64,000 bases of DNA. Source: an uncultured Acidobacteriota bacterium (GTDB lineage Bacteria; Acidobacteriota; Vicinamibacteria; Vicinamibacterales; JAKQTR01). The stretch is taken from positions 110,544 through 174,543 of the forward strand of contig CAWICP010000019.1 of assembly GCA_963834645.1 (NCBI GenBank), given 5' to 3'. A model generated the notes under the pieces. It ran no database searches and was not told where the DNA came from. It saw only the letters and a program-made list of their open reading frames with translations. The position numbers and the translations under genes are program-made. Positions within the stretch are counted from its first letter, which is position 1; every line of letters starts with the position of its first letter. This document shows, in pieces, positions 30,358 through 62,876 of the stretch.

Positions 30358-30415
30358 GCGTCGGAAGCCCATGATAGCATCCCGGGGATTGTCGCCGTTG
30401 TGGAGGGAGCTTCGC

Positions 30416-31700
30416 ATGTTGATGAGACTGGCGCTCGGCGTATCGGTGGCGGTGCTGGGTCTGGCCGCCGTGGCGGTCGCGCAGCAGGGTTCGCCCGCGA
30501 AAGATCCGGTGCGCGTGAAGTCGGACGCGATCCACGCGAAGGTCCTGACCCTCGACACGCACGTCGACATCCGGGGCGGCGGCGATTACGGCGTGCTGAC
30601 GCCGGGGCAGAAGTGCGACCTCGTGAAGATGCAGCAGGGCGGGGTGAAGGGCGTGTTTCTGGCCGCCTACGTCGGGCAGCGCCCGGCCTTCGACGCGGCG
30701 GCCTACAAGGCCGCCTACGATGCCGCCAGCAGGCAGTTCGACTTCCTGGACACGCTGACCGGGAAGGCGCGGCCGGAGATGTGCGCGTTCGCCGCGTCGC
30801 CGTCCGAGGTCGAGCGCGTGGCGAAGACGGGGAAGCGCGTGATCATGACCGGCCTCGAGAACGGCTACCCCGTGGGTGAGGACCTCGCCAACGTCAAGGC
30901 GTTCTATGATCGCGGCGCCCGTTACATCACGTTGACCCACAGCGGGCACAACCAGATCGGCGACTCGTCGAGCGACCGCAACCCGCCCCGCAACAACGGC
31001 CTGTCGCCCTTCGGGAAGCAGGTCGTCGCCGAGATGAACCGTCTCGGCATGATGGTGGACGTGTCCCACTCGGCGGCGACGACGTTCTGGGACGCCATCA
31101 AGCTGTCGAAAGCGCCCATCATCGCCTCGCACTCGGGCTGCAAGGCCGCTCCACGACGTCGACCGCAACCTCGACGACGAGCAGCTGAAGGCCCTGGCGA
31201 AGAACGGCGGCGTCGTCCAGATCGTGGCGCTGGCGTCGTACCTCAAGGCGGACTCGCCCGGGCGCGCGGAGGCCGTGCGCCAGCTGCGCGAAGAGCTCGG
31301 GATGCCTGCCGGCGGCCGGGGCCGGCAGGGCGGGCCGCCTTCGCAGCCGCTCACGCCGGAGCAGCAGGCCGACGCGCAGAAGCGCCGCGCGGCCTACATG
31401 GAGCGGATGCAGGCGATTGACGCGAAGTTCCCGTCAGCGTCGATCGCCGATTTCGTGAATCACATCGACCACGCCGTCAAGGTGGCGGGCATCGATCACG
31501 TCGGCATCGGCACGGACTTCGACGGCGGCGGCGGGTTCCCCGGTTTCAACGACCACTCGGAAGCGGCGAACGTGACGGAGGAACTGGTCCGGCGGGGCTA
31601 CTCCGAGCAGGACGTCGCGAAGATCTGGGGCGGCAACCTCATGCGAGTCTGGCGCGACGTGCAGAAGGTGGCCGAGCGGGAACAGACGGCCGCCCGGTAG
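30416..31700 (+). pseudogene. Membrane (renal-type) dipeptidase, peptidase family M19; one frame break (~31148)
   Basis: GGAGGG precedes ATG 30416, followed by a signal peptide. The first piece is LTLDTHVDI...GVKGVFLAAY...RYITLTHSGHNQIGDSS...GMMVDVSHSAATTFWDAIKLSKAPIIASHSGCKA. It continues as HDVDRNLDDEQLKALAKNGGVVQI...HVGIGTDFDGGGG...IWGGNLMRVW (ORF 31224..31700). Confidence 0.85.
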
Positions 31701-41490: not shown

Positions 41491-42786
41491 TCAGCGTGGG
41501 GCTGGGAGGTCCTGTCGGGCGGCTTCCGCGGGCGTGATCCAGAACCACGCGAGCGCCGCGAGGACCGAGAGGCCGGCGGCAAGATGCAGCGCCGGCTCCC
41601 ACCCGAACATCTCTCCGATCATCGGCGTGAGCATGGGCGACACGACTCCGCCGATGTTGCAGCCGGTGTTCATGATGGCGCCGCCCGTGCCGCTGCGGTC
41701 GCCGGCCAGCCCCGCGACGGTGGTCCAGAACGGGCTCTCGACGCTCAGGACGAGGGCCGTGGCGACGGCCAGCGCCAGCGCGGCCATCCAGGCCTCCGTC
41801 GTGTGGGCGCCGATGGAGATGAACACGCCGGCGCCGCCCATGCCCACGATGGGAATCAGGCGCCGTCCCCACACCGGCCCGAGCCTGCCTTGCACGAGGC
41901 GATCGGAGATGACTCCGCCAAGAGGAATCGAGACGGCGGAAAGCACCCACGGCAGGCTGCTGATGAACGCGCCTTCGACCAGGCTGAAGTGCCGGACCTG
42001 GACGAGATACAGATAGAACCAGAAGATGAAGATGTACCCGACATAGCCCTGGAGCGTATAGCTCAGGGTCAGCAGGGCGAAGCCCGGCGCCTTCAGCAGG
42101 CGCACGACCACGCGGCCGTGGGTTTCGCGCCCGGTGACGCCCGCGGCGGCACGAGGCGATGACGTCGTGGCTGCTGGAGCGGGATCGCGGACGAGGAGCC
42201 AGATCACGGCGATCGACCAGCGCCGGGATCGCGGAGGCCACCATCGCGGCGCGCCAGCCCCACGGCACCATCACGGCGGTGATGAACGGCGGAGCGATCG
42301 CCGACCCGAGCCCCACCGAGCCGATGACGAACCCGTTGGCCCGCCCCATCGAGACCGGCGCGGTCCACCGCGACACCCCTTCGAGCGCGGCCGGGTAGGT
42401 GGGGAGGCCAGCACGCCCATCACGAAGCGGAGCGCCACGAGCATGCCGACCACGCCCATCATCGAACCGGCGGCGGCTCCCGCAGGCACGGCCGCCTGAA
42501 GGACCGTGACCGCGACCCAGCCCCACGCCAGCACCGACAGCGTGCGCTTCGCGCCCCACGTGTCGGCCATGAGGCCCCCGGGGAGCATCAGCAGCGTGTA
42601 GCCGGCGAGGAACGCGCTGAAGACACGGCCCATCTGGGTTTGCGTGAGGCCGTACTCCTGCATGACCAGGGCGCCGGCGACCGAGATGTTCACGCGGCAG
42701 AGGTAGGCCGCGGTGGCTGTGGCCGCGAGCAGCAGCACCAGGCCCCAGTGCGTGCGGGTGAGCGGCACGCCGGGCACGTGCGTCAC
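41491..42786 (-). pseudogene. MFS transporter, anion:cation symporter (ACS, hexuronate/aldonate-type) family; two frame breaks (~42402, ~42215)
   Basis: GTG 42786 overlaps the GH29 stop (GTGA). The first piece is LCRVNISVAGALVMQEYGLTQTQMGRVFSAFLAGYTLLMLPGGLMADTWGAKR. It continues as YPAALEGVSRWTAPVSMGRANGF. The last piece is IAVIWLLVRDP...YVGYIFIFWFYLYLVQVRHFSL...VISDRLVQGRLGPVWGRR (ORF 41491..42207). Confidence 0.8.
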
Positions 42787-44339
42787 TCGAGCGCCGGGGC
42801 GCCGTGCAGCGGGGCGGCCATCAGATGCAGGCTGAGGGCGGAGACGGCGGGCGTGCCGCGCGTCTGCACGATGGTCAGCCGGAGGCGTGCGTCATGGTGC
42901 GCCGCGTCGATCCGCACCTCCGGGAAGCGCAGCAGGCGTTTGTAGCCGATGGTCGTGCCCTGCGCGAATTCGCGGCACTCGCCGGCCGCGCAGACCTCGA
43001 GCGTGAAGGCCTCGACGCGCTGGCCCTGCCGGATGTCCTCCTGCAGGAGGGCGACGTCGAACCGGCGGCCGGCGGCGATGGGCACCTCGTAGCGGACCGG
43101 CCCACCCTCGACCGACACTCGCTGCGGCGGCCGGGCCTCGGCCGCGGGGGAGGCGAACGTGCGGTCGAGCGCCGCGCGCATGCCCATGAGGCTCGTCACG
43201 TCGGCATCGGCGATGCGCCCGCGCGTGTCCGGCGGCACGTTGAGCAGCAGCAGCCCGTTGCGCCCGACCGAGCTGAAGTAGATGTCGACCAGCTTCTCCG
43301 GTGTCTTGACCTGGCCGTCCTGCTTCGCATGGTAGAACCAGCCGGGCCTGATCGAGACGTCGGTCTCCGCCGGGTACCACGCGAGCACGGAGGCCGTCCG
43401 GATCGCCTCGCGGCTGCCGAGGTCCTTCGCGGTCAGGTCGCCCGGCACGAAGGCGTCATCGAGCGGATGGGGAGACTCCCGGCGCGGCGCCGCGCCCTCG
43501 CGCAGCGTGAGCGGCACGACGCTCCATTCGGTCTCGCGGCCGTAGCCCGACTCGGTGCCCACCCAGCGCACGTCGGGCGCCATCCCGAAGATGACCGCGC
43601 CGGGCTGGAGTTCCCGCACCACGCGGTAGTACGACGGCCAGTCGTAGACCTGGCGCTTGCCGTTCGGCCCCTCGCCCATCGCGCCGTCGAACCAGACCTC
43701 GGCGATCTCGCCGTATCCGGTGAGCAGTTCGCGGAGCTGCGCCCGGAACAGCTCGTTGTAGCGCGGCGAATCGCCGTAGCTCGGCTCGTGGCGGTCCCAC
43801 GGCGAGACGTAGACCCCGAAGGCCAGGCCCGCTTCCCGGCACGCCCGGGCCACTTCGGCCACCACGTCGCCGTTCCCGTTTCTCCAGGGGCTGCTCTTCA
43901 CGCTATGGGTCGTCGTGGCGGTCGGCCACAGGCAGAACCCGTCGTGGTGCTTGGCGGTCAGGATGAGCAGTTTCATCCCGGCGGCCTTGAAGACCTGCAC
44001 CCACTGGCGCGCGTCGAAGTCGGTTGGATTGAACAGGGCGGGCGATTCCTTGCCGTCGCCCCACTCGCGGTCGGTGAACGTGTTCATGCCGAAGTGCGCG
44101 AAGGCGATGAACTCGCGCGCCTGCCAGGCGAGCTGGTTCGGCGAGGGCGCGACGCGGGACGCTTTGGCGACGATGCGATCGAGCGGCTCGCCCGGAGTGA
44201 TGGTGACGAACCGGACCGACGCTGGCGGCTCTTGCGCCTGTGGCGGTGCGCCGCGCGGGGCGAGGGACGCCGACGGCGGAGACGAGCGCGCGGCAGCGGC
44301 GGCCGCGAGAAGGAGGGCGAGATGCGTGAATGGGTTCAT
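42783..44339 (-). CDS. GH29 alpha-L-fucosidase with C-terminal beta-sandwich (discoidin-like) domain
   Basis: The ORF is intact. ATG 44339 (MNPFTHLALLLAAAAAA signal peptide) overlaps the upstream stop (ATGA). GH29 blocks include FIAFAHFGMNTFTDREWG, AGMKLLILTAKHHDGFCLWPT, YVSPWDRHE, EVWFDGA and GNGLLLLNVPPDTRGRI. Confidence 0.88.
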   Translation of the reverse strand: MNPFTHLALLLAAAAAARSSPPSASLAPRGAPPQAQEPPASVRFVTITPGEPLDRIVAKASRVAPSPNQLAWQAREFIAFAHFGMNTFTDREWGDGKESPALFNPTDFDARQWVQVFKAAGMKLLILTAKHHDGFCLWPTATTTHSVKSSPWRNGNGDVVAEVARACREAGLAFGVYVSPWDRHEPSYGDSPRYNELFRAQLRELLTGYGEIAEVWFDGAMGEGPNGKRQVYDWPSYYRVVRELQPGAVIFGMAPDVRWVGTESGYGRETEWSVVPLTLREGAAPRRESPHPLDDAFVPGDLTAKDLGSREAIRTASVLAWYPAETDVSIRPGWFYHAKQDGQVKTPEKLVDIYFSSVGRNGLLLLNVPPDTRGRIADADVTSLMGMRAALDRTFASPAAEARPPQRVSVEGGPVRYEVPIAAGRRFDVALLQEDIRQGQRVEAFTLEVCAAGECREFAQGTTIGYKRLLRFPEVRIDAAHHDARLRLTIVQTRGTPAVSALSLHLMAAPLHGAPALE

Positions 44340-45572
44340 GCGTATTGTCCTGCCACCCAGCCCGAAGACCAGGCCCACTGGAAATTGTATCCGCCCAGCC
44401 ACCCGGTCACGTCCACGACTTCTCCGACGAAGTACAGGCCCGGTACCTCGCGGGCCTCCATCGTCTGCGAAGACAGCGCGTGTGTGTCGACGCCTCCGAG
44501 CGTGACCTCGGCTTTCGAGAACCCGAGCGTGCCCGACGGCATCAGCGTCCAGGCGTTGAGCGCGCGCGCCATCTTCTCGCGGGCCGGCAAGGGATACTCG
44601 TCAATCCGGCCCGTCCAGCCGTGCAGGCCGCACCATCCGTGCGCGAGGCGGCGGGGGAGCGCCTCGGACAACAGGTTCGGGAGGACGGCCCGGCTGCCGG
44701 CGCGCTCCGCGAGCCAGGCGCGGGCGTCGTGTCCCGGCAGCAGATCGAGTTCCACCGGCGCACGCGAGCCTGGGGCGTAGGACTGAAACTGCCAATAGCT
44801 CGAAATCTGGAGGATGGCCGGGCCGGACAGCCCTCGATGCGTCACCAGCGCGCGCTCGGCGAATCGCGGCGCCCGGCGGCCCGTCCCGCAGCGAACGACC
44901 GACTCGAACGCGACGCCGGCGAGGGGCGTCAGGGCGGCCATCTCCTCCGGGGCGAGCGCGAGCGGGACCAGGGCGGGCCGGGGCGCCACGACGGGGATGC
45001 CGAACTGTTCGGCCACCGCGTAGCCGAACGGCGTGGCGCCGAGCAGCGGAACGGCCAGTCCGCCGGTGGCGATGACAACGGATGCGCACCGCCATGTGCC
45101 CTGGTCGGTGACCACGTCGAAGCGCGCGCCGTGCGGCGAGGGCGGCGACGTGCCGGCGGCGCCGGTCGGGGCGATACGATCGACGGCGCACGGGTGTACG
45201 AGCCGCACGCCGGCTGCGTCGCAGTCTCGCCGCAGCAGCCCGAGAATGTCGTGTGAAGACCGGTCGCAAAACAGTTGCCCGTGCTGCTTCCTCGTGGTAG
45301 GGAACGCCATGGCGCTCGACAAGCGCGATGAAGCGGTCGGGCGGGTACCGGGCCAGCGCCGAGCGGCAGAACCCGGGGTTCTGCGAGAGATAGTGTTCCG
45401 CCCCGGCGTGCCGGTTGGTGAAGTTGCAGCGCCCGCCCCCCGACACGCGAATGCGCTCGCCGATCGTGCGCCAGTGATCGACGAGCACGACGCGCCGGCC
45501 GCGGCGGCCGGCTTCGGCGGCCGCCATCATGCCGGCCGCTCCGGCGCCGATGACGACGACGTCCACGTCCAT
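44336..45572 (-). pseudogene. BaiN/HI0933-like FAD-dependent flavoprotein; one frame break (~45290)
   Basis: ATG 45572 opens MDVDVVVIGAGAAGMMAAAEAGRRGRRVVLVDH...RVSGGGRCNFTN...GVPYHEE. It continues as KQHGQLFCDRSSHDILGLLRRDC...VVIATGGLAVPLLGATPFGY...THRGLSGPAILQISSYW...EVTLGGVDT...GLYFVGEVVDVTGWLGGYNFQWAWSSG (ORF 44336..45322). Confidence 0.8.
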
Positions 45573-46596: not shown

Positions 46597-46710
46597 GCGG
46601 GCGGCCGGCCCAATCGCGCGCGGCCCGCGTTTCGGATACACTGAAGTTCTGCCGGGCCTGCATGCCGGGCCACCGTGCGCCCGGCGCCAACGCTTTCCAA
46701 GGTGTTCCTG

Positions 46711-49581
46711 ATGACTGTCTCCCGACCCGTGAGAACCCTGCTCGCCGCCTTCGTGCTGCTGGCGGCCGCCTCGATCGCGGCCGCGCAAACCGCTGTCCAG
46801 ACCCCCGCCCGCAAGCAGGCGCCGCTGGCGGTCGCGCCGTTGCCGTCGGCGACCGAGCGCGTGCCGGTCGATCCCCGCATCATCATCGGCCGGCTGGAGA
46901 ACGGGCTGCGCTACTACATCCGGCGCAACCCCCGGCCCGCGAAGCGCGCCGAACTGCGCCTGGTCGTCAACGCCGGGTCGGTCCTCGAAGACGACGACCA
47001 GCTCGGCCTGGCGCACGTGGTCGAGCACATGGCGTTCAACGGCACGAAGCACTTCGCCGGCCAGGAAATCACGGGCTTCATGGAGTCCATCGGCATGCAG
47101 TTCGGGCCGAGCCTGAACGCGTTCACGACGTTCGACGACACGACCTTTCTGCTGACCGTGCCCACCGATCGCAAGGAGATTCTCGAGAAAGCGTTCCTCA
47201 TCATGGAGGACTGGGCGCACAATCTCACGTTCGACGGGCGGGAGATCGACAAGGAACGGGGCGTCATCGTCGAGGAGTGGCGCCAGGGGCGCGGGGCGGC
47301 GGCCAGACTCCAGGACCAGCTGTTTCCCGATCGTGCTGAAGGGATCGCGCTACGCGGCGCGCAGCCCGATCGGCACGAAGGAGTCGCTCGACACCTTCTC
47401 GCACGACCGGCTCAAGCAGTTCTACCGGGACTGGTACCGCACGGACCTGATGGCCGTGGTCGCCGTCGGCGATTTCGATCCGCCCGTCATCGAGCGCATG
47501 ATCAAGGAGCGGTTCGGGTCCATCCCGGCGCCGGTTGGACCCAAGCCGAGGCCGGCCTACCCGGTGCCCGACCACCCCGGCACCCGCTACGCGATCGCGA
47601 CCGACCCGGAGCTGCCGGCCGCGTCGCTGACGATCTTCAAGAAGCTGCCGATCCGCGAGCAGGCGACGGTCCTCTCCTACCGCGAGCGCATCATCGACCA
47701 CCTGTACGCGGCGATGTTCAACGCGCGGCTCAACGAGCTGAGCCAGCGCGCGGACGCGCCGTTCATCGGCGCCGGCGTGGATCGGGGCATCTTCGTGCGG
47801 ACGGCGGAAGTGGCGATGCTCTCGGCGATGACCCAGCCCGACCGGATAGGTCGAGCACTCGAAGCGCTCGTGACCGAGGCGGCGCGGGTCGAACGCCACG
47901 GGTTCACCGCCACGGAGTTCGAGCGCGAGAAGCGGAACCTGCTGCGCGGCTACGATCAGGCGCTCGCCGAGAACGACAAGGACGAGTCGGCCCCGCTCGC
48001 GGCGGAGTACATCCGGAACTTCCTGACCGACGAATCGCTCCCGGGGATCGCGTGGGAGCACGAGATGCACCTGAAGTACCTCCCGGGCATCACGCTCAAG
48101 GAGGTCAACGCGCTGGCGACGGTGTGGAACGGCGACAACAGCCGCGTCGTGGCGATCTCGGCCCCCAGCCGGCCCGGCCTGGCCATCCCGACGGAAGCCG
48201 ATCTGGCGCGCATCGTCGGATCGGTGTCGCCGGCCGCGGTGACCGCCTACGTGGACACCGTTCCTGACGCCGTGCTCATGGCGAAGCCTCCCGCGCCCGG
48301 CGCGATCACCTCGGAGAAGACCATTCCCGAGGCCGGCATCACCGAGTGGACGCTGTCAAACGGCGCCCGCGTCGTGCTGCATCCGACCACGTTCAAGCAG
48401 GACGAGGTGTATATCCGCGCCATCAGCCCGGGCGGCGCCTCGCTGGTGCCCGATGCGGACTACGTGGCGGCCGCCACCGCCGCCCAGGTCGTCTCGTCGG
48501 GGGGCCTGGCCGGCTTCGATGCCGTCACCCTCGACAAGGTGCTGGCCGGGAAGGTGGCCACCGTGCTGCCGTTCTTCGAGGAGTCGTTCGAAGGGCTGGC
48601 CGGCGGAGGGTCGGCTCGCGATCTCGAGACGCTGCTGCAGCTGATGCACCTCCGGTTCACGCAACCCCGGGCCGACGCCACCGCGTTCGGCGTCATGGTG
48701 GACCAGGCGAAGTCGCTGGCCGCGAATCGCCGCTCCGATCCCGACACCATCTTCGAAGACACCGTGTCGGCCATCGTCTGGCAGAACCACTTCAGGAAGC
48801 GGCCGCTGTCGGCCGAGGTCGTCTCGGAGATGAACCTCGAGAAGTCGTACGCGTTCTACAAGGACCGGTTCGCCGACGCCGGCGACTTCGTGTTCGTGTT
48901 CGCGGGCAGCTTCGATCCCGCCGCCATCCGGCCCCTCGTCACCCGCTACCTCGCCTCGCTGCCGTCCACCGGACGGAAGGAGAGCTGGAAAGACACCGGC
49001 ATCAGGACGGCGCGCGGCGTCGTCGAGAAGCTCGTCGAGAAGGGGATCGAGCCGCAGAGCCGGGTGCGCGTGGTCTTCTCCGGCCCCTTCAGGTGGGACC
49101 CCACCCAGCGGACGCTGCTCCGCGTGCTGGGCCTGATTCTCGAGGGGCAGCTCGGCGCCGTGCTGCGCGAGGACCAGTCGGGGACCTACGGCGTGAAGGT
49201 GACCACCGCCAGCGACAAGATCCCGACGCCGTCCTACGCCCTGTCGATCGACTTCAGCTGCGCGCCCGAGCGGACCGAGGACCTGGTGAAGCGCCTGTTC
49301 CTGGAGTTGTCGCGCGTGCGGATGGAGGCGCTCTCGGAGCCGTACGTCCGGGGCGTGCGCGAGGCGCTGGCGCGGGAGTTCGAGACCGACTCCCACGAGA
49401 ACCGCTGGGCGGTGGCCCGGATCACCGAAGCCTACGAGAACGGCGACGACGTCAGGGACGTGCTCAAGGCCCCGGCTCTTCAACACGACGCTGTCGGCGG
49501 CCATGATCCAGGATGCCGCGCGGCTGTACCTGGACACCCGGAACTTCGTGCGGGTGACGCTGATGCCGGAGAAGAAATAGC
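46711..49581 (+). pseudogene. Large secreted M16-family zinc protease (PqqL-like, ~955 codons); two frame breaks (~47328, ~49478)
   Basis: ATG 46711 is followed by a signal peptide (LLAAFVLLAAASIAAAQT) and the zinc motif GLAHVVEHMAFNGT. After the first break it reads IVLKGSRYAARSPIGTKESLD...LMAVVAVGDF. A second M16 half reads VVLHPTTFKQDEVYIRA.... After the last break it reads FNTTLSAAMIQDAARLYLDTRNFVRVTLMPEKK, stop TAG 49579-49581. Confidence 0.85.
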
Positions 49582-49588
49582 CGGTGCG

Positions 49589-49608
49589 TCGAGGCTGAAG
49601 CCTCGACC
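49589..49608. terminator. 8-bp perfect hairpin just after the M16 protease stop
   Basis: The hairpin is gtcgaggc tgaa gcctcgac. It lies between convergent genes. Confidence 0.5.
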
Positions 49609-49624
49609 TCCATTCAGATGGAGC

Positions 49625-49646
49625 CCGGGGGCTTCAGCCCCCGGGG
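49625..49646. terminator. 9-bp perfect GC hairpin just after the dehydrogenase stop
   Basis: The hairpin is cccgggggc ttca gcccccggg. It sits 3 nt from the stop of the minus-strand gene at 49649. Confidence 0.5.
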
Positions 49647-49648
49647 AG

Positions 49649-50572
49649 TCAGTTCACCTTGAAGGTCGTGTCGCCCTTCTCGAAGAAGTTGACAATCTGT
49701 CTCGCGGCGGCCAGGCCGGCGTTGATGTTGGCCTCGGCCGTCTGCGCGCCCATCTTCTTGGCCGTGAAGCAGTAGCGTCCCTGGTACTTCGCGGCGAACT
49801 CGGCCGCGCATGCCGGAGCCACGTCGGCGCCGTACATGAAGTCCGGCCGCTCCTCCATCACCTGGAGCAGGCCTGCCTCGTCAATCACCTCGGCCCGGGC
49901 GGTGTTGATGAGGGTGCCGCCTTTCTTGAACTTCGAGAGCAGGGCGGCATTGACGGACTGCACCGTGTCCTTGGTCTTGGGCAGGTGCAGCGACACGTAG
50001 TCGCACGTGGAGTAGAGCTCGTCGGCCGTCCCGACGGGCGTCACGCCTTCGGCCTTCATCTTCTCGGCAGGCACATACGGATCGAACGCCAGCGCGTCCA
50101 TCCCGAAGCCCCTCGCGATCATCGCGACGTACTTGCCGACGTTGCCGTACGCGTGGATGCCGATCTTCTTGCCGCGCAGTTCGGTGCCGTCCTTGCCGCT
50201 GAACCCCCGGCGGGCCAGGGTGATCATCAGGCCGAAGACGAGTTCCGCGACGGCGTTCGAATTCTGGCCGGGCGTGTTCATGGCGACCACGCCGCGGGCG
50301 GCCGCGGTCTTGAGGTCGATGTTGTCGTACCCGGCGCCGGCGCGGACGACGATCTTCAGGTTCGTCGCCGCCTGCAGCACCTCGGCGTCCACGATGTCGC
50401 TGCGGATGATCAGGGCGTCGGCGGCCGCGACCGCCTTCAGGTAGTCGGCTTTGTCCTTGTAGCTCTCGAGCAGCGTCAGGGCGTAGCCGGCTTCACGGAA
50501 GATCTCGGCGATGCCGGCGACGGCGACCTTGGCGAAGGGCTTCTCGGTCGCGACCAGCACGTGCTTGGACAT
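49649..50572 (-). CDS. D-isomer-specific 2-hydroxyacid dehydrogenase (short SerA-like)
   Basis: This is an intact 307-aa ORF. It has RAGAGYDNIDL, the NAD motif IGIHAYGNVGKYVA, and LINTARAEVID with a catalytic His/Glu/Arg context. Confidence 0.85.
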   Translation of the reverse strand: MSKHVLVATEKPFAKVAVAGIAEIFREAGYALTLLESYKDKADYLKAVAAADALIIRSDIVDAEVLQAATNLKIVVRAGAGYDNIDLKTAAARGVVAMNTPGQNSNAVAELVFGLMITLARRGFSGKDGTELRGKKIGIHAYGNVGKYVAMIARGFGMDALAFDPYVPAEKMKAEGVTPVGTADELYSTCDYVSLHLPKTKDTVQSVNAALLSKFKKGGTLINTARAEVIDEAGLLQVMEERPDFMYGADVAPACAAEFAAKYQGRYCFTAKKMGAQTAEANINAGLAAARQIVNFFEKGDTTFKVN

Positions 50573-50647
50573 GGAACCTCCTGGGATGGATCCCTCGAGG
50601 GGCAGGGGGCGGGCAGAGAGACTATAGCGCCACAGGCGGCGCAGCCG

Positions 50648-50986
50648 CTAGTCGGGGAAGGCGAAGATCCGGTCCATGAGCCTCCACTTCGCGCCCGGGG
50701 GACCGCCGGGGACAGCCTGCTGGTAGCGCCACATCAGCGCCTCCCACGCCTGGACCCGATCGCTTGCGGCGTCGGCCGCCGCCTTCGCCTCGAAGCTGAA
50801 GCGGTCGTCGACCTCCATGACCATCAGCAGGCGGTTCTCGAGGCGGTAGATCTCCATCGAGAGGATGCCGGACGAGGCGATGCTCTCGAGGATCTCGGGC
50901 CAGACCTTGCGGTGGTACGCCTCGTACTCCTCGATGAGGCGGACATCGTCCTTGAGATCGAGCGCGAGGCAGTAGCGTCTAGCCAT
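50648..50986 (-). CDS. RhaM-family (DUF718) deoxy-L-sugar mutarotase
   Basis: ATG 50986 opens MARRYCLALDLKDDVRLIEEYEAYHRKVWPEILESIASSGILSMEIYRLENRLLMVMEVDD...WEALMWRYQ. It is collinear with my recollection of E. coli RhaM/YiiL. It overlaps the permease 3' end by 8 nt. Confidence 0.8.
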   Translation of the reverse strand: MARRYCLALDLKDDVRLIEEYEAYHRKVWPEILESIASSGILSMEIYRLENRLLMVMEVDDRFSFEAKAAADAASDRVQAWEALMWRYQQAVPGGPPGAKWRLMDRIFAFPD

Positions 50987-52262
50987 GCGTGTCCGCTCCG
51001 GTGCCCTTCCAGCCATAGAGCGCGACCACCAGGAAGCAGGCAAGCGGCGCGTAGTAGGCCAGTTGAATGCTGCCGGTGGCGTCCGAGATGCGCCCCATGA
51101 CGAGCGGGATGATCGCGCCGCCGACAATCGCCATGACGAGCAGCGAAGACCCGAGCTTCGCGAGTTCCCCGGTGTGCTTGATCCCGAGATCGAAAATCGT
51201 CGGGAACATGATCGACATGAAGAAGGGCACCAGCATCAGCGCCGAGACGGCCGTCATGCCGGACGTGTTGATGGCGATGCCGAGCAGGGCCACGCTCGCC
51301 AGAGCGTATGCGGTGAGCAGGCGGACGGGGCGCACGAAGCGCATGGCGAAGGTGCCGGCGAATCGGCCCACCATGAAGCCGACCATGGCGATGCTGCCCC
51401 AGAGAAACGCCGCGCGCCGGTCGGTGAGGCCGGCGGTCTGCTGCGAGAACCTGACGAAGAAGCTGCCGACGCCGATCTGGGCGCCGACGTAGAAGAACTG
51501 CGCCACCACGGCCAGCACCAGGTTGGGGTGGTGCAGCACCCGCCGCGTGAAGGCCATGCCGTGCTCGCCCTCGCCCTCGGCGGGCACCTCCGGGATGCGA
51601 TACCGGAAGAAGAGCAGCATCACGGCGATGATGACGCCGGCGAGCACCAGGTACGGCAGGACCACGCTCCCGGCTTCGCGCTGCAGGTACGCCTGCCGGG
51701 CCGCCTCGGTGAAGCCGGCGAACTCGGCGTCGGTATACGTGATGCCCGAGAGGATGAGGCTGCCCCCGATGAGCGGTGTCACGACGGCGCCGACGCCGTT
51801 GAACGACTGCGACAGGTTGAGGCGCGAGGTGGAATGGGCCGGGTCGCCGAGGCCCGAGATATAGGGGTTCGCCACCGTCTCGAGAAACGCCGCGCCGAAG
51901 CCGAAGATGAACAGGGCGGTGAGGAACGTCCCGTACGTCCGGCTGTAGGCCGCCGGCACGAACAGCAGCGCGCCGAGGGCGAACAGCGCGAGGCCGCTCA
52001 GAATCGTGAACCGGTAGCCCCTCCGCTGGATCAGGAGGCCGGCGGGGATCGCGGCCAGGAAGTACGCGATGTAGATGGCGACGTCGATGAAGGCCGACTC
52101 CATGTCGCTCAGGAGCAGCGCCTTCTTCAGGTGCGGGATCAGGATCCCGTTGATGTTGTGCACGAACGCCCAGAAGAAGAAGAGCGTCGTCACGAGGAGG
52201 AACGGCACCACCAGGTGCCGATCCTGCCTGCGGTAACCCGTGTAGCGGTAGAACCAGTTCAT
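50979..52262 (-). CDS. FucP/glucose-galactose porter family MFS permease (L-fucose:H+ symporter-like)
   Basis: ATG 52262 opens an intact ORF. It matches E. coli FucP block by block. Matches include PFLLVTTLFFFWAFVHNINGILIPHLKKA, YFLAAIPAGLLIQRRGY, ALGALLFVPAA, FLETVANPYISGLG and RLNLSQSFNGVGAVV. Further matches are AQFFYVGAQIG, MSIMFPTIFDLGIK and LVMAIVGGAIIPLVMG. Confidence 0.88.
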   Translation of the reverse strand: MNWFYRYTGYRRQDRHLVVPFLLVTTLFFFWAFVHNINGILIPHLKKALLLSDMESAFIDVAIYIAYFLAAIPAGLLIQRRGYRFTILSGLALFALGALLFVPAAYSRTYGTFLTALFIFGFGAAFLETVANPYISGLGDPAHSTSRLNLSQSFNGVGAVVTPLIGGSLILSGITYTDAEFAGFTEAARQAYLQREAGSVVLPYLVLAGVIIAVMLLFFRYRIPEVPAEGEGEHGMAFTRRVLHHPNLVLAVVAQFFYVGAQIGVGSFFVRFSQQTAGLTDRRAAFLWGSIAMVGFMVGRFAGTFAMRFVRPVRLLTAYALASVALLGIAINTSGMTAVSALMLVPFFMSIMFPTIFDLGIKHTGELAKLGSSLLVMAIVGGAIIPLVMGRISDATGSIQLAYYAPLACFLVVALYGWKGTGADTHG

Positions 52263-52273
52263 GGGCGCGATCG

Positions 52274-53423
52274 TCAGAAGATGGCGTAGTGCCGCCGGAT
52301 CCGGACCTGGATGGCGTCGGGCACGAATCCGTCGGCGACGAGGATGAGATAGCCGCCGCCGCCGGCCCCGCTGAGCTTCCAGCCGCGTGCGACGCCGCGG
52401 TAGGCGTCGATCTGATCGTAGATGGCCTGACTGGCCATGTTCGGGAACATCGCGACCTGCGCGTCGAACGACGCGGTGAACGCCCGGCCGACACGCGGGA
52501 AGGTCCATGGCCCGGATGGCCGCCCAGCAGTCGTCGGCGGCGGCCGCCAGCGCGCGCGCGCCATCGGCGGTCACGCGCGTCTCGCCGAGCACGCTGAACT
52601 CGGCCGCCCTCGGGCCGAGCGGCACCAGGTGCAGGCGCCGCTCGAGCCACGCCAGCACCTCCTCGTCGTCGACCGTCTCGATCGCGTACGGCCAGTAGGC
52701 GCCGTTGTACTCGAGCCGGTTGAGCCCGGGATAGACGATGCCGATCGCGTCCTGGGAGCCGGCCACTTCCTTGGTGCCGGGCGGGTTCTCGTAGCTGAAC
52801 AGGATCTTGGCCACCTGCTCCTTGTTGCCCTGGGGCAGGGCGGTCCGCCAGAGCTCGATGGCCTTGTTCCGCGTGCTCGACGCCATGCCGCTGCGGTTGT
52901 TGAACTCGTGCGTCGGCTCGATGGAAATCGTCAGGACGGCGCCGGGATGATGGCAGGACACGAACGGCTGGTCGAGCCAGCCCCCCGCGAGATCGATCCG
53001 GAACGGGATCGTGCACGCGTCGCGAAGGGCCGTCGTGCTTCGCGCCGGCAGGCCGCCGTGCGGCAGCCGGCGGAGGACGAGGTACTCGATGCCCATCTCG
53101 CGGCACAGCTGCGCTTTGCTCTCGTGCGCGCCGTCCTCGTTGACGACGAACACGTCGGGCCTGACCTCGCGCAGTTCGTCGACGAAGTCGAGCAGGCCCA
53201 TCCCGCGGCTGATGCGGCACTCCTTCACGCACCGCAGCGAGTCGATGAGGTACTTCCGCTCGTCCTGCGGGTTGACGGGGTAGCGGCCCTTGAGGCGGAA
53301 CACGCACTCGTCGTTGCCGACCGAGACGTGCAGGTCTCCGTGCGTCGCGGCCTCGGTGAGAAAGGCCACGTGCCCGCTGTGCAGGAGGTCGAACGTGCCG
53401 CTGACGAAGGCCTTGCGCGGCAT
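52274..53423 (-). pseudogene. Fusion: HIGH-motif (cytidylyltransferase-like) nucleotidyltransferase + fucokinase-like GHMP kinase; one frame break (~52500)
   Basis: ATG 53423 opens the N-terminal domain MPRKAFVSGTFDLLHSGHVAFLTEAATHGDLHVSVGNDE...VFVVNEDG (TagD/RfaE-domain-II type). The kinase part reads IPFRIDLAGGWLDQPFVS...NNRSGMASSTRNKAIELW. After the break it reads FPRVGRAFTASFDAQVAMFPNM...GWKLSGAGGGGYLILVADG, stop TGA 52274 (ORF 52274..52564). Confidence 0.75.
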
Positions 53424-53430
53424 GCGGCGG

Positions 53431-54399
53431 CTACCGGGACGCGGCCCTGGCCGCCTTCACCTGCGACGCGATCCAGGGATAGGTGAGCGCCAGGCCCGCC
53501 TCGAGGTCCACCTTCGACGTCCAGCCGAGCGAGTAGATGCGCGCGTTGCTGAAGTTGCGCGAGTGCACGCCCACGGGGCCGTCCACGTGCCGGATGTTGA
53601 TCGTCTTGCCGGCCACCCGGGCGGTCGTGAGCGCCAGTTCGTCCACCGTCACGTACTGCGGGCAGCCGATGTTCGCCGCCCCGTGCAGATCCGAGTGGGT
53701 GAGCGCGAAGATGCCGTCGACCATGTCGCTGACGTAGGTGTAGGAGCGGACGGCCGAGCCGTCGCCCCAGACGTCGATCGTGCCGCCGTCCTCGATCTCG
53801 GCAATCTTGCGGCACATGGCCGCCGGCGCCTTCTCGCGGCCGCCGGTCCAGGTGCCCTCCGGCCCGTAGCAGTTCTGGAACCGCGCGATCCGCACCTGCA
53901 TGCCGTAGCGCCGTTCGTACGCCTCCGCGATGCGCTCCGAGTAGAGCTTCTCCCATCCGTACTCGTTGTCCGGGTTCGCCGGCACGGCTTCGGCTTCCGT
54001 CATCTCGGGCTCGCCCGGCTGCATGTCGCGGTAGACGCAGACCGACGACGAGAAGAAGTAGCGCGGCACGCCGAGCCGGGCGGCCTGGTCGGTCATGTAG
54101 ATGTTGATGAGCGCGCTGTTGTGCATGATCTCGGTTTCGGCCGAGTGGATGAACCCCATCCCGCCCATGTCGGCCGCCAGCTGGTAGACCTCGTCGAACG
54201 GACCGCCGCCGACGGTGAGCGCCTCCCGGCAGTTGGCCTCCACGCGCAGGTCGAGTTGCTTGAACTCGTCCGCCCCGTCGGGCGACCACTCGTGCCGCTT
54301 GATGTCGACGCCGCGCACCCAGTAGCCGAGCCCGCGCAGCTTCTTCACGAGATGCATGCCGATGAATCCGCCCGCCCCGCACACCAACGCTCGCTTCAC
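53431..54399 (-). CDS. GDP-mannose 3,5-epimerase-like extended SDR (plant GME homologue)
   Basis: GTG 54399 is preceded by GGAGGA and opens an intact ORF. It starts VKRALVCGAGGFIGMHL. It contains LAADMGGMGFI, YGWEKL, RFQNCYGPEGTWTGGREKAPAAMCRK, VWGDGSAVRSYTYV and GPVGVHSRNFSN. These blocks match my recollection of Arabidopsis GME almost residue for residue. Confidence 0.85.
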   Translation of the reverse strand: MKRALVCGAGGFIGMHLVKKLRGLGYWVRGVDIKRHEWSPDGADEFKQLDLRVEANCREALTVGGGPFDEVYQLAADMGGMGFIHSAETEIMHNSALINIYMTDQAARLGVPRYFFSSSVCVYRDMQPGEPEMTEAEAVPANPDNEYGWEKLYSERIAEAYERRYGMQVRIARFQNCYGPEGTWTGGREKAPAAMCRKIAEIEDGGTIDVWGDGSAVRSYTYVSDMVDGIFALTHSDLHGAANIGCPQYVTVDELALTTARVAGKTINIRHVDGPVGVHSRNFSNARIYSLGWTSKVDLEAGLALTYPWIASQVKAARAASR

Positions 54400-54436
54400 G
54401 GCCGTCCTCCGGAATGAAAGGTCGCAGTTCGCGGGA

Positions 54437-55052
54437 TCACGTCGCCCGCACGCGGTCTTCGACGCCACTTTGCGGGGACCCGCTGCCGGCGGGTTCGCCC
54501 GCGGTGCCGTGGGCCTCGAGGAGGCGCTCGTGGCCCAGCTTCAGCCGGCCCTGTTCGACCTCGTCGACGCCGGCCGCGCTGATGGCCAGCATGCCCGACT
54601 CGAGACGCTCGAGCCAGCCCTTCGCCCGCAGGTACCAGATGTGAAATTCCACCAGTTCGAGGGGCGTGCGCATCAGCCGGGCGACTTCGTACTCGCCGAT
54701 GCCGGGCAGCGCCATGCTCCGGCGCCGCTGGACGTAGAACAGGGAGAGCATCCGCTCCCGCATGTCCCGGTCCTGGTCGAACGCGGTTCCGTCGCCCGAC
54801 TCGGAGACCAGCTTCCACTTGCGGTTCCAGTACTCCTGGTACGTCCGCGTCGTAGCCGGCCCGGGACTCCGGGTCGGTCAGCACCCGGTGTGCCTCCACC
54901 AGGCGGCGGAACTTCTCGTCGTCGGGCGAGTCCTGGTGATCGGGATGGTATTTCTTGGCCAGGTGCCGGAACACGCGCTGAATCGTCTCTTCGTCGGCGT
55001 TCGAGCTGACCTGAAGCAGCTCGTAGTAGTCGACGAAACTGGTGAGATCCAA
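54437..55052 (-). pseudogene. J-domain (DnaJ-like) protein with C-terminal winged-helix-like region; one frame break (~54848)
   Basis: The TTG 55052 start is tentative (GGAGAGG 7 nt upstream). The J domain reads DYYELLQVSSNADEETIQRVFRHLAKKYHPDHQDSPDDEKFRRLVEAHRVLTDPESRAGYD, with the HPD motif. It continues as YQEYWNRKWKL...EYEVARLMRTPLELVEFHIWYLRAKGWLERLESGMLAISAAG (ORF 54437..54763). Confidence 0.7.
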
Positions 55053-62725: not shown

Positions 62726-62876
62726 CCACGTCCTGCGATGCTTCGTATGTTCGTCACGATACCTCTATAGGACCGGCGTCATAACCTGCGTACGGCGGCT
62801 GATCTCGGCCGCGGAACGGGTTCTGACACCGCCTCTAAGAGTGTATCGCGCACGCTGGTCACCGCGGAAGTTTCTG

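What the first reader, a model, noticed from the sequence alone, without database searches (positions are those of the whole stretch)
52274..53423. Unusual fusion architecture: cytidylyltransferase-like (HxGH) domain joined to a fucokinase-like GHMP kinase
Seen in the sequence: residues 1 to ~130 carry GTFDLLHSGHVAFL, the TagD/RfaE-domain-II HIGH nucleotidyltransferase signature. The remainder carries RIDLAGGWLDQP, SGMASST and KLSGAGGGGYLILV, which are GHMP motifs 1-3. Motif 1 is of the fucokinase type (GGWxD).

Established knowledge: the known bifunctional sugar activators use other domain pairs. Fkp combines an NTP_transferase-fold pyrophosphorylase with a GHMP fucokinase. HldE/RfaE combines a PfkB kinase with a HIGH adenylyltransferase.

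Inference: this protein mixes the two solutions (HIGH transferase plus GHMP kinase). It would be a third, convergent design for a one-polypeptide sugar-1-P/NDP-sugar factory.
Basis: partly seen in the sequence, partly recalled or inferred. Interest (0 to 1): 0.65.

Follow-up and report, generated by a model that had tools for sequence, protein, structure and literature searches.

The report
Compact fucose kinase–nucleotidyltransferase fusion gene
This is a real and very widespread, but barely studied, two-domain enzyme gene that most likely turns scavenged L-fucose into an activated nucleotide-sugar; in this window it is broken by a single extra base that is probably a sequencing error, and the same design was already proposed in 2026 for an Akkermansia protein.

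Summary
HxGH and GHMP motifs 1-2 lie in the frame of the ATG at 53423. Motif 3 lies in another frame. One extra base (window 52492) causes this. Removing it restores a 382-aa protein collinear with hundreds of intact homologues. The window has similar 1-nt insertions in unrelated genes, and the downstream part still shows purifying selection, so a sequence error is the likeliest cause.

The domain junction is intact. The N-domain is a HIGH-type nucleotidyltransferase nearest to ADP-heptose-forming HldC. The C-domain is a shortened GHMP kinase that keeps the fucose-binding Arg/Trp/Asp of Fkp and the catalytic GxQD.

The architecture is not rare: more than 7,000 proteins and at least 513 species genomes across several phyla. 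It commonly sits beside FucP, GH29 fucosidase and RhaM mutarotase, sometimes fused to RhaM, and here beside a GDP-mannose 3,5-epimerase homologue.

Lakey et al. 2026 proposed the same design for Akkermansia Amuc_1591 from genetics alone. No enzymology exists, and the nucleotide used is unknown.

Verdict: an ordinary member of a known but under-characterised family. Interest is moderate.

The parts
52274..53423 (-). Fusion gene (HIGH-type nucleotidyltransferase + trimmed GHMP fucokinase-like kinase). It encodes 382 aa once the extra base at 52492 is removed. As written it is frameshifted.
   Evidence: Homologues of 382 aa reach 95% identity.
52492..52492 (-). Single extra base (G on the minus strand, C on the plus strand) that shifts the frame at codon ~310.
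   Evidence: It is the only gap in the alignment to the intact orthologue L003. Deleting it restores the consensus PAFGRAFTASF.
53019..53423 (-). N-terminal nucleotidyltransferase domain (aa 1-135).
   Evidence: Pfam PF01467 covers aa 7-97 at E 1.9e-8, above its cut-off. TIGR02199 rfaE_dom_II scores 4e-14. Foldseek on the orthologue model finds HldC 5xf2 (32-34% identity), Fom1 CyTase and TagD.
53370..53381 (-). HxGH motif (H15-S-G-H18).
   Evidence: Invariant in 40 family members.
53031..53042 (-). R-S-T-T (aa 128-131), the counterpart of the RTxGISTT motif of the cytidylyltransferase family.
   Evidence: R128, T130 and T131 are invariant and S129 is conserved in >=90%. The assignment to the family motif rests on my own knowledge of the TagD/CCT motif.
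52277..53012 (-). C-terminal GHMP kinase domain (aa 138-382), split between two frames in the window.
   Evidence: PDB profile hits to the Fkp fucokinase domain 9iip (E 5e-14), HddA 3k85 and WcbL 4usk. Foldseek finds 4usk, 9iip and 3k85.
52965..53000 (-). GHMP motif 1, RIDLAGGWLDQP (aa 142-153). R142, W149 and D151 align with Fkp R592, W599 and D601.
   Evidence: HMMER alignment to 5yys/9iip. The roles of the Fkp residues come from PMC11982464. All three residues are invariant in the family.
52869..52895 (-). GHMP motif 2 / phosphate loop, RSGMASSTR (aa 177-185).
   Evidence: R177, S178, G179, M180, S183, T184 and R185 are invariant. The loop has low pLDDT in the model, as flexible loops often do.
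52749..52760 (-). G-S-Q-D (aa 222-225), predicted catalytic-base segment.
   Evidence: It aligns to GGKQD of HddA and GGRQD of WcbL. Equivalence to Fkp G759/Q761/D762 is inferred from the description in PMC11982464. The segment is invariant.
52349..52378 (-). GHMP motif 3, KLSGAGGGGY (aa 349-358), in the shifted frame.
   Evidence: It aligns to Fkp KLPGAGGGGY. Amuc_1591 G326, a suppressor site, maps to G354.
53431..54468 (-). Upstream gene, ending just upstream of the fusion's start codon: a GDP-mannose 3,5-epimerase-like SDR.
   Evidence: E 3e-75, full length, to Arabidopsis GME 2c59. Pfam Epimerase. GME-like genes lie near the fusion in 7 loci.
50979..52262 (-). Downstream gene, 11 nt after the fusion's stop: L-fucose:H+ symporter (FucP).
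   Evidence: TIGR00885 fucP scores 331 bits against a cut-off of 280. FucP is next to the fusion in 22-23 of ~80 loci.
50648..50986 (-). RhaM-family mutarotase.
   Evidence: PF05336 at E 8e-30. It neighbours the fusion in 11-12 loci, and about 595-aa proteins fuse it to the N-terminus of the fusion.
49649..50572 (-). D-2-hydroxyacid / phosphoglycerate dehydrogenase-like gene at the end of the same-strand run. Its link to the module is weak.
   Evidence: It is conserved only in L003 and one other locus.
42783..44600 (-). GH29 alpha-L-fucosidase, about 6 kb downstream.
   Evidence: PF01120 at E 4e-41. GH29 genes are near the fusion in 14 loci.

Best explanation
The gene encodes a compact (382 aa) bifunctional enzyme for L-fucose salvage. 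L-fucose is released by GH29 fucosidases, imported by FucP, and its anomers are interconverted by the RhaM-type mutarotase. The C-terminal trimmed GHMP domain phosphorylates beta-L-fucose at O1 with ATP. D225 would be the general base, R142 and the S178-T184 loop would hold the phosphates, and W149 and D151 would hold the sugar. The N-terminal HIGH-type domain then joins an NMP from an NTP to beta-L-fucose-1-phosphate, giving NDP-L-fucose and pyrophosphate. This is the job the 949-aa Fkp does with a different transferase fold.

What is shown: domain identities, motif conservation, the intact junction, the gene neighbourhood and the phyletic spread. What is inferred: both activities, the sugar, and the nucleotide. 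The nucleotide could be GDP, as the adjacent GME-like gene and known biology suggest, or ADP, as the nearest relatives HldC/RfaE-II use.

The frameshift at 52492 is most likely a sequence or assembly error, so the organism probably has an intact gene.
For: Architecture: Pfam and NCBIfam hits for both halves. PDB sequence and fold matches are HldC/TagD-type for aa 1-135 and Fkp/WcbL/HddA-type for aa 138-382.

Active sites: HxGH and R-STT are conserved, as are R142/W149/D151 (= Fkp R592/W599/D601) and GSQD and motif 3. W149 is shared with fucokinase but not with the heptokinases.

Context: the window has GME, fusion, FucP, RhaM with short or overlapping gaps, and GH29 nearby. Across ~80 loci, FucP is a neighbour in 23, GH29 in 14, RhaM in 11, GME in 7, FucA-like aldolase in 6 and FGGY kinase in 5. 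RhaM-NT-kinase triple fusions exist.

Genetics in a homologue: all 12 D-arabinose-resistant Akkermansia mutants hit Amuc_1591, and L-fucose or mucin rescues growth (PMC13313206). Amuc_1591 is homologous across the junction, and its G326 maps to motif 3 G354.

Frameshift as an error: there is a single 1-nt insertion against the intact orthologue. Five further 1-nt insertions lie in the 9.4 kb collinear with L003; two of them break the M16 peptidase gene. A split M19 peptidase gene lies elsewhere in the window. Downstream of the shift, differences from L003 are 9 synonymous to 3 non-synonymous codons, and 11 of 13 differences are at third positions in the corrected frame.
Against: No member of the family has been assayed, and the Akkermansia evidence is genetic only. 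The one suppressor I could map falls in the kinase P-loop, and no allele is known to target the transferase domain, so its activity is untested.

The GHMP domain is atypical. Pfam GHMP_kinases_C is below its cut-off (18 against 21 bits), GHMP_kinases_N gives no hit, and only 36 aa separate motifs 1 and 2, against about 120 in Fkp.

The model is of moderate quality (pLDDT 78.7), with low confidence at the linker and the motif 2 loop.

To my knowledge no HIGH/cytidylyltransferase-family enzyme is known to use GTP, while the only known fucose donor is GDP-fucose, so one element of the scheme must be new.

Many loci, for example Pontibacter and Pedobacter, have no fucose genes nearby.

A real, recent loss-of-function frameshift cannot be excluded from one sequence. 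Such frameshifts were selected in Akkermansia.
Confidence: 0.68

Rival explanations
1. The frameshift is real. In this organism the gene is a recently inactivated pseudogene, or it yields only a truncated product of the transferase domain plus a partial kinase lacking motif 3.
For: The base is present in the sequence given. Loss-of-function alleles of the homologue Amuc_1591, including a frameshift, are readily selected when the enzyme makes a toxic product.
Against: The window carries several other 1-nt insertions in unrelated conserved genes: M16 peptidase twice and M19 peptidase. That pattern fits sequence error. Downstream codons still show a purifying-selection pattern in the corrected frame. 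The site has no slippery sequence, and the closest relatives lack the base.
Confidence: 0.12
2. The enzyme works on a heptose or another sugar rather than fucose, for example an HddA/WcbL-like 1-kinase joined to an HldC-like adenylyltransferase that makes an ADP-sugar.
For: The best structural and sequence relatives of the N-domain are the ADP-heptose enzymes HldC and RfaE-II. WcbL and HddA are among the top matches for the C-domain. Sister sub-families carry GGFFDQ and G(A/T)xDA in place of GGWLDQ and GSQD, so sugar specificity does vary within the superfamily.
Against: The window clade has the fucokinase Trp (GGW.D), whereas the heptokinases have GGG(S/T)D. The Fkp fucose-binding residues are conserved. 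The conserved neighbours are FucP, GH29, RhaM, FucA-like aldolase and FGGY kinase; no GmhA- or GmhB-type gene is among the 14 commonest neighbour clusters. In Akkermansia, L-fucose competes with the toxic analogue D-arabinose.
Confidence: 0.07
3. Only the kinase half acts on fucose. The HIGH-type domain either is a regulatory nucleotide-binding module or transfers a nucleotide to a different acceptor, and NDP-fucose is made elsewhere or not at all.
For: No data exist on transferase activity. The one mappable published suppressor falls in kinase motif 3. Stand-alone 240-aa kinase domains and kinase-less NT-NT proteins both exist, so the domains can work apart. Fkp itself has an extra, non-catalytic nucleotide site.
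Against: HxGH, R-STT and about 35 other N-domain positions are invariant across phyla, which is typical of a catalytic site. The fusion, including NT-NT-kinase and RhaM-NT-kinase forms, recurs widely. The nearest relative, HldC, is itself a sugar-1-phosphate nucleotidyltransferase.
Confidence: 0.13

Closest known systems
Akkermansia muciniphila Amuc_1591 (putative 'fucose-nucleotidyltransferase', Lakey et al. 2026, PMC13313206)
   Same: Same domain order: a HIGH-type transferase, then a fucokinase-like GHMP domain. The junction is the same, and it shares HxGH, STT, GGWLD, a WQD/SQD segment and a glycine-rich motif 3. Identity is 34% over aa 3-183 (E 8e-31) and hhalign probability is 99.7%.
   Different: Only about 27% identical overall, and the C-terminal half does not align by BLAST. 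It is 363 aa against 382 aa. According to the paper it sits in an operon with murJ rather than beside FucP, RhaM and GME. Its function rests on suppressor genetics and modelling only, with no enzymology.
Fkp, L-fucokinase/GDP-L-fucose pyrophosphorylase of Bacteroides fragilis (PDB 5yys, 9iip, 9iit)
   Same: A one-polypeptide fucose activator with the transferase at the N-terminus and a GHMP kinase at the C-terminus. Kinase motif 1 and motif 3 align, and the fucose-binding Arg/Trp/Asp are kept.
   Different: The Fkp transferase has the NTP_transferase/beta-helix fold and uses GTP; this one has the HIGH Rossmann-type fold. Fkp is 949 aa, and its kinase has about 120 aa between motifs 1 and 2 where this protein has 36. 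The NCBIfam Fkp equivalog score is 45.6 against a cut-off of 721.
[quoted passage not shown]
   Same: The N-domain's best sequence and structure matches (TIGR02199 E 4e-14; 5xf2 at 32-34% identity). It is a HIGH-type enzyme that acts on a sugar-1-phosphate, and in HldE it is also fused to the kinase of the same pathway.
   Different: The HldE kinase is PfkB-type and N-terminal. TIGR02199 scores 52.5 against a cut-off of 181.5. The genomic context is fucose, not heptose or LPS core.
HddA / WcbL GHMP heptose-7-phosphate 1-kinases (3k85, 4usk)
   Same: GHMP anomeric sugar kinases. The GxQD catalytic segment and motif 3 align, and they are top fold matches.
   Different: They have GGG(S/T)D rather than GGW.D in motif 1, a full-size N-lobe, no fused transferase, and a different substrate class.
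TagD / CCT / ECT cytidylyltransferases and the Fom1 CyTase domain
   Same: The same Pfam family (PF01467) and the same fold and HxGH/STT chemistry. ECT-like tandem NT-NT arrangements also occur in relatives (P0185, P0129).
   Different: Those enzymes act on small phospho-alcohols or phosphonates with CTP and are not linked to sugar kinases.

Membership tests
Cytidylyltransferase-like HIGH nucleotidyltransferases (Pfam PF01467) | Pfam model score above the gathering cut-off | tested here: met
   35 bits against 21, covering aa 7-97. TIGR00125 cyt_tran_rel scores 45 against 27.7.
Cytidylyltransferase-like HIGH nucleotidyltransferases (Pfam PF01467) | HxGH motif near the N-terminus | tested here: met
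   H15-S-G-H18, invariant in the family.
Cytidylyltransferase-like HIGH nucleotidyltransferases (Pfam PF01467) | C-terminal RTxGISTT-type motif | tested here: met
   R128-S-T-T131, with R128, T130 and T131 invariant and S129 conserved in >=90%. The preceding loop is longer than in TagD (sequence inspection; the motif definition is from my own knowledge).
Cytidylyltransferase-like HIGH nucleotidyltransferases (Pfam PF01467) | Rossmann-type fold matching solved members | tested here: met
   On the model of orthologue P0001 (91% identical): HldC TMt 0.70, TagD TMt 0.82-0.86, rmsd 2.1-2.5 A.
Cytidylyltransferase-like HIGH nucleotidyltransferases (Pfam PF01467) | Nucleotidyl transfer activity and nucleotide specificity | not testable with these tools
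   Needs enzyme assays.
GHMP kinase superfamily | Motifs 1, 2 and 3 | tested here: met
   RIDLAGGWLDQP, RSGMASST and KLSGAGGGGY are all present. In the window, motif 3 is out of frame because of the extra base at 52492.
GHMP kinase superfamily | Pfam GHMP_kinases_N / GHMP_kinases_C above cut-off | tested here: not met
   GHMP_kinases_C scores 18 bits against 21, and GHMP_kinases_N gives no hit. Some homologues do carry a precomputed PF08544 hit.
GHMP kinase superfamily | GHMP two-lobe fold | tested here: met
   Foldseek finds WcbL, the Fkp C-terminal domain, HddA, mevalonate kinase and GalK at E 1e-8 to 1e-5. The N-lobe is shortened.
Fucokinase (Fkp C-terminal domain type) | Fucose-binding Arg, Trp and Asp of motif 1 (Fkp R592, W599, D601) | tested here: met
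   R142, W149 and D151 align with them and are invariant. Residue roles are from PMC11982464.
Fucokinase (Fkp C-terminal domain type) | General-base Asp in the GxQD segment (Fkp Q761, D762) | tested here: inconclusive
   GSQD 222-225 aligns to GxQD of HddA and WcbL. HMMER gave no direct alignment to Fkp in this stretch, so the equivalence is inferred from spacing.
Fucokinase (Fkp C-terminal domain type) | NCBIfam Fkp equivalog (NF009948) score above cut-off | tested here: not met
   45.6 bits against 721; only the C-terminal ~70 residues match.
Fucokinase (Fkp C-terminal domain type) | L-fucose 1-kinase activity | not testable with these tools
   The only indirect support is D-arabinose toxicity and L-fucose rescue in Akkermansia.
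HldE / RfaE domain II | TIGR02199 score above cut-off | tested here: not met
   52.5 bits against 181.5.
HldE / RfaE domain II | Partnered with a PfkB heptokinase and heptose-pathway genes | tested here: not met
   The partner is a GHMP domain. The conserved neighbours are fucose genes.
Amuc_1591-type NT-GHMP fusion family | Same domain order with homology running across the junction | tested here: met
   BLASTP gives 34% identity over aa 3-183, E 8e-31. hhalign gives probability 99.7%.
Amuc_1591-type NT-GHMP fusion family | Homology of the C-terminal half | tested here: inconclusive
   BLAST and hhalign stop at motif 2. A MAFFT alignment with bridging sequences aligns the QD segment and motif 3, with 27% identity overall.
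Amuc_1591-type NT-GHMP fusion family | D-arabinose sensitivity that depends on the gene | not testable with these tools
   Needs genetics in the source organism or in a heterologous host.

The most novel reading that the evidence does not exclude
The HIGH-type domain has a nucleotide specificity never seen for its family or for fucose. Either it is the first guanylyl-transferring member of the cytidylyltransferase-like family and makes GDP-L-fucose or GDP-L-galactose, or it makes a non-canonical ADP- or CDP-L-fucose. With the GME homologue next door, the operon could run a Leloir-like assimilation route: L-galactose or L-fucose, then the sugar-1-phosphate, then GDP-L-sugar, then GDP-mannose. 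That route is not a known bacterial pathway.
Probability: 0.2. Interest if true: 0.7.

Novelty: new member of a known kind. Interest (0 to 1): 0.4.

Why it matters
If the predicted chemistry holds, this family is a 380-aa alternative to the 949-aa Fkp for one-pot synthesis of activated fucose and its analogues. It would also be the main fucose-salvage enzyme in many soil and water Bacteroidota, Acidobacteriota, Verrucomicrobiota, Ignavibacteriota and others, where it is currently annotated only as 'adenylyltransferase/cytidyltransferase family protein'.

The open question with real content is which nucleotide the HIGH-type domain uses. GTP would be a new specificity for that enzyme family. ATP or CTP would mean a new nucleotide sugar.

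For this window specifically, the practical lesson is that the sequence contains frequent single-base insertions. Long read-through ORFs and apparent pseudogenes here should therefore not be taken at face value.

Tried and rejected
1. Programmed frameshift: rejected. The site (CCC GCG TGT CGG) has no slippery sequence, and the closest homologues lack the extra base.

2. Two separate genes hidden by an indel at the domain junction: rejected. The indel lies about 175 codons downstream of the junction, and the junction is collinear in the homologues aligned.

I used orthologue P0001 instead (91% identical).

5. Residue-level alignment of the motif 2-GSQD stretch to Fkp: phmmer found nothing, and only HddA and WcbL align there.

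6. Literature searches for ADP-, CDP- or UDP-L-fucose, for GHMP + cytidylyltransferase + fucose, and for further Amuc_1591 papers: nothing beyond PMC13313206.

7. My first reading of the M16 peptidase frames in L003 used spurious high-GC ORFs. The frameshifts in the window's M16 gene were instead read directly from the window's own three-frame translation together with the indel positions.

8. P0185 as a possible split-gene (RhaM-NT) form: it turned out to be a tandem NT-NT protein in a glycan-synthesis cluster with no kinase, so it is not evidence for a split module.
Full report
**1. Observation**

The minus-strand frame that opens at the ATG at 53423 carries the following motifs:
- GTFDLLHSGHVAFL (HxGH at aa 15-18);
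- RIDLAGGWLDQP (aa 142-153);
- SGMASST (aa 178-184).

That frame becomes nonsense after about residue 310 (...AIRAMDLPACRPGVHRVV...). It never meets the stop at 52274-52276 and runs into the next gene, giving a spurious 814-aa ORF 50979..53423.

The third GHMP motif, KLSGAGGGGYLILV, together with the natural C-terminus ...IRRHYAIF*, lies in another frame (ORF 52274..52564). The reported interval is 1150 nt, which is not a multiple of three.

**2. The frameshift**

A genome-collection scan found a 95%-identical intact orthologue in a Vicinamibacterales (Acidobacteriota) MAG: L003:450-1598, 1149 nt.
- The nucleotide alignment has 83 mismatches and one gap. The gap is an extra G on the minus strand at window 52492.
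- Removing that base gives ...AIRAMDLPAFGRAFTASF..., which is the consensus of the family. The product is 382 aa and collinear with the homologues.

Three observations make a sequence error the likeliest cause:
- Over the 9.4 kb collinear with L003, the window has five more single-base insertions. Two of them (47330 and 49482) each change the frame of the M16 peptidase gene. Elsewhere, a Peptidase_M19 gene is split between two frames at about 31.1 kb, with profile positions 32-207 in one frame and 205-318 in the other.
- Downstream of 52492, differences from L003 in the corrected frame are 9 synonymous to 3 non-synonymous codons, and 11 of 13 substitutions are at third positions. The upstream part shows the same pattern, 53 to 13.
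- There is no slippery motif at the site.

A real, very recent inactivation cannot be excluded from one sequence. I give it about 0.12.

**3. The junction and the domains**

The shift lies about 175 codons downstream of the domain boundary (aa ~135-138), so it does not hide two genes. The 13 homologues aligned are collinear through the junction, and hundreds of homologues share the 380-385-aa length.

N-domain:
- Pfam CTP_transf_like is above its cut-off.
- The best NCBIfam hit is RfaE domain II (E 4e-14, below its equivalog cut-off).
- The AlphaFold model of orthologue P0001 has pLDDT 78.7. Its best match is HldC, the stand-alone heptose-1-phosphate adenylyltransferase (32-34% identity). Next come the Fom1 CyTase domain, 3glv and TagD.
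- HxGH is invariant in 40 members, and R128-S-T-T131 is invariant apart from S129, which is conserved in >=90%.

C-domain:
- PDB profile searches hit the Fkp fucokinase domain (E 5e-14), HddA and WcbL. Foldseek agrees.
- HMMER aligns P140-FRIDLAGGWLDQP to Fkp P590-VRIDMAGGWTDTP. This makes R142, W149 and D151 the counterparts of R592, W599 and D601.
- The Fkp crystal-structure paper reports that W599 and D601 bind fucose, with W599A and D601A losing more than 3000-fold in kcat/Km, and that R592 lies near the anomeric O1 and stabilises the leaving group (PMC11982464).
- The heptokinases have GGG(S/T)D at this position, so the Trp is a fucokinase trait.
- GSQD (aa 222-225) aligns with the GxQD catalytic segment of HddA and WcbL. 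Its equivalence to Fkp Q761/D762 is inferred.

The domain is unusually small. Only 36 residues separate motifs 1 and 2, against about 120 in Fkp. Pfam GHMP_kinases_C falls just below its cut-off, and GHMP_kinases_N does not hit.

**4. Surroundings**

The gene sits in a same-strand run:
- a GDP-mannose 3,5-epimerase homologue at 53431..54468 (E 3e-75 to Arabidopsis GME), ending just upstream of the fusion's start codon;
- the fusion gene;
- FucP at 50979..52262 (TIGR00885 above its cut-off), starting 11 nt after the fusion's stop;
- a RhaM-family mutarotase at 50648..50986;
- a 2-hydroxyacid dehydrogenase at 49649..50572.

A GH29 alpha-L-fucosidase lies at 42783..44600.

**5. Relatives elsewhere**

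The protein database returned 7,290 hits, with hundreds of full-length proteins of 380-385 aa. They are named only 'cytidyltransferase-like' or 'adenylyltransferase/cytidyltransferase family protein'.

Among the 80 loci kept, the source organisms include:
- Bacteroidota (Chitinophagaceae, Saprospiraceae, Bacteroidales, Sphingobacteriales);
- Ignavibacteriota;
- Verrucomicrobiota;
- Acidobacteriota;
- Planctomycetota;
- Chloroflexota;
- a Clostridia MAG.

The 50%-identity library holds 214 clusters at E<=1e-30.

Clustering of all ORFs within 4 kb of the gene in about 80 loci gave these neighbour counts:

| Neighbour | Loci |
|---|---|
| FucP | 23 |
| GH29 fucosidase | 14 |
| RhaM | 11 |
| GME-like | 7 |
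| class II aldolase (FucA-like) | 6 |
| FGGY kinase | 5 |

Architectural variants also exist:
- RhaM-NT-kinase, about 595 aa;
- NT-NT-kinase;
- stand-alone 240-aa kinases.

Some genomes have the gene alone in housekeeping surroundings.

**6. Literature**

Searches for the architecture found one relevant paper: Lakey et al., Gut Microbes 2026 (PMC13313206).
- All twelve D-arabinose-resistant suppressors of two Akkermansia muciniphila strains carried mutations in Amuc_1591. The alleles were V176G, G326E and a frameshift.
- L-fucose or mucin rescued growth.
- From a ColabFold model, the authors described an N-terminal adenylyl/cytidylyltransferase domain and a C-terminal fucokinase-like domain. 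They proposed a 'fucose-nucleotidyltransferase'.
- The nucleotide is unknown and there is no enzymology.

I took the Amuc_1591 sequence from their Table S5.
- It is 34% identical to the window protein over aa 3-183, which spans the transferase domain, the junction and kinase motifs 1-2 (E 8e-31).
- hhalign gives a probability of 99.7%.
- It is about 27% identical overall, with the QD segment and motif 3 aligned.
- G326 maps to G354 in motif 3. At least one of the two substitution suppressors therefore hits the kinase phosphate loop, and no known allele tests the transferase domain.

No paper mentions ADP- or CDP-fucose. NCBIfam and Pfam have no dedicated model for this family.

**7. Mechanism**

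Best-supported scheme, confidence 0.68:
- Fucose is released by GH29 enzymes and imported by FucP.
- The RhaM-type mutarotase interconverts its anomers.
- The GHMP domain phosphorylates it at O1.
- The HIGH-type domain converts it to NDP-L-fucose.

This is functionally an Fkp analogue built from a different transferase fold. D-arabinose, which is fucose without C6, would be a toxic alternative substrate, as the Akkermansia genetics suggest.

The nucleotide is open. The nearest relatives use ATP. The adjacent GME homologue and the known biology of fucosylation point to GDP.

The rivals, with my estimates, are a real pseudogene (0.12), a heptose or other sugar substrate (0.07), and a kinase-only enzyme with a non-catalytic or differently targeted N-domain (0.13).

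**8. Verdict**

The fusion is genuine and plausibly bifunctional. It is common rather than unusual, and the idea has already been published for a homologue.
- I class it as a new member of a known but barely characterised kind.
- Interest is 0.4. The value lies in the untested transferase chemistry and in a family-wide annotation gap, not in this particular locus.

Noticed in passing
window 47330 and 49482 (M16 peptidase gene, ~46700-49650, +): Two single-base insertions relative to L003 each shift the frame of the M16 peptidase gene. The text ...QDQLFP|IVLKGSRYAARSPIG... and the C-terminus ...KAPAL|FNTTLSAAMIQDAARLYLDTRNFVRVTLMPEKK* continue in other frames. As a result the listed ORF 47333..51100 runs on for about 500 spurious residues.
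   Followed up: partly
window ~31050-31420 (+): The Peptidase_M19 (membrane dipeptidase) gene is split between two overlapping frames. ORF 30233-31420 covers Pfam positions 32-207, and ORF 31053-31700 covers positions 205-318. This is another frameshift in an unrelated conserved gene.
   Followed up: partly
window 45287, 45736, 52272; 46664: There are further 1-nt insertions (45287, 45736, 52272) and one 1-nt deletion (46664) relative to the collinear Vicinamibacterales contig L003. The excess of insertions over deletions suggests a systematic sequencing or assembly error.
   Followed up: no
window 53431-54468 (-): A full-length homologue of plant GDP-mannose 3,5-epimerase (E 3e-75) ends just upstream of the fusion's start codon. 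GME-like genes lie near the fusion in 7 loci, including Acidobacteriota, Planctomycetota and Bacteroidetes-labelled MAGs. This may indicate that the pathway handles GDP-L-sugars.
   Followed up: partly
P0129, P0159, P0147, P0164, P0185 (L088:5001-5843): Relatives show other arrangements: NT-NT-kinase, stand-alone 240-aa trimmed kinases, and a kinase-less tandem NT-NT protein. The last sits in a glycan-synthesis cluster with a B12/radical-SAM enzyme and glycosyltransferases.
   Followed up: partly
P0151, P0169, P0212 (alignment): Sister sub-families of the fusion carry GGFFDQ or G-FFDQ and G(A/T)xDA where the window clade and Amuc_1591 have GGWLD and S/W-QD. They may activate a sugar other than fucose.
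   Followed up: no
window 52895-53000 (-), aa 142-177: Only 36 residues separate GHMP motifs 1 and 2, against about 120 in Fkp. The N-lobe of the kinase is strongly reduced yet conserved across phyla. How it still closes the active site is unexplained.
   Followed up: no
window 60383-62764 (-) and 42783-44600 (-): A sulfatase fused to a long TPR region and a GH29 fucosidase lie in the same 20 kb. This would fit foraging on sulfated fucose-containing glycans.
   Followed up: no
PMC13313206, supplementary Table S5: The JAX-AM001 Amuc_1591 sequence printed in Table S5 differs from the BAA-835 sequence at residue 329 (G to E, in GGGYG[G/E]Y). The text names the suppressor G326E. Both positions lie in GHMP motif 3.
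   Followed up: no
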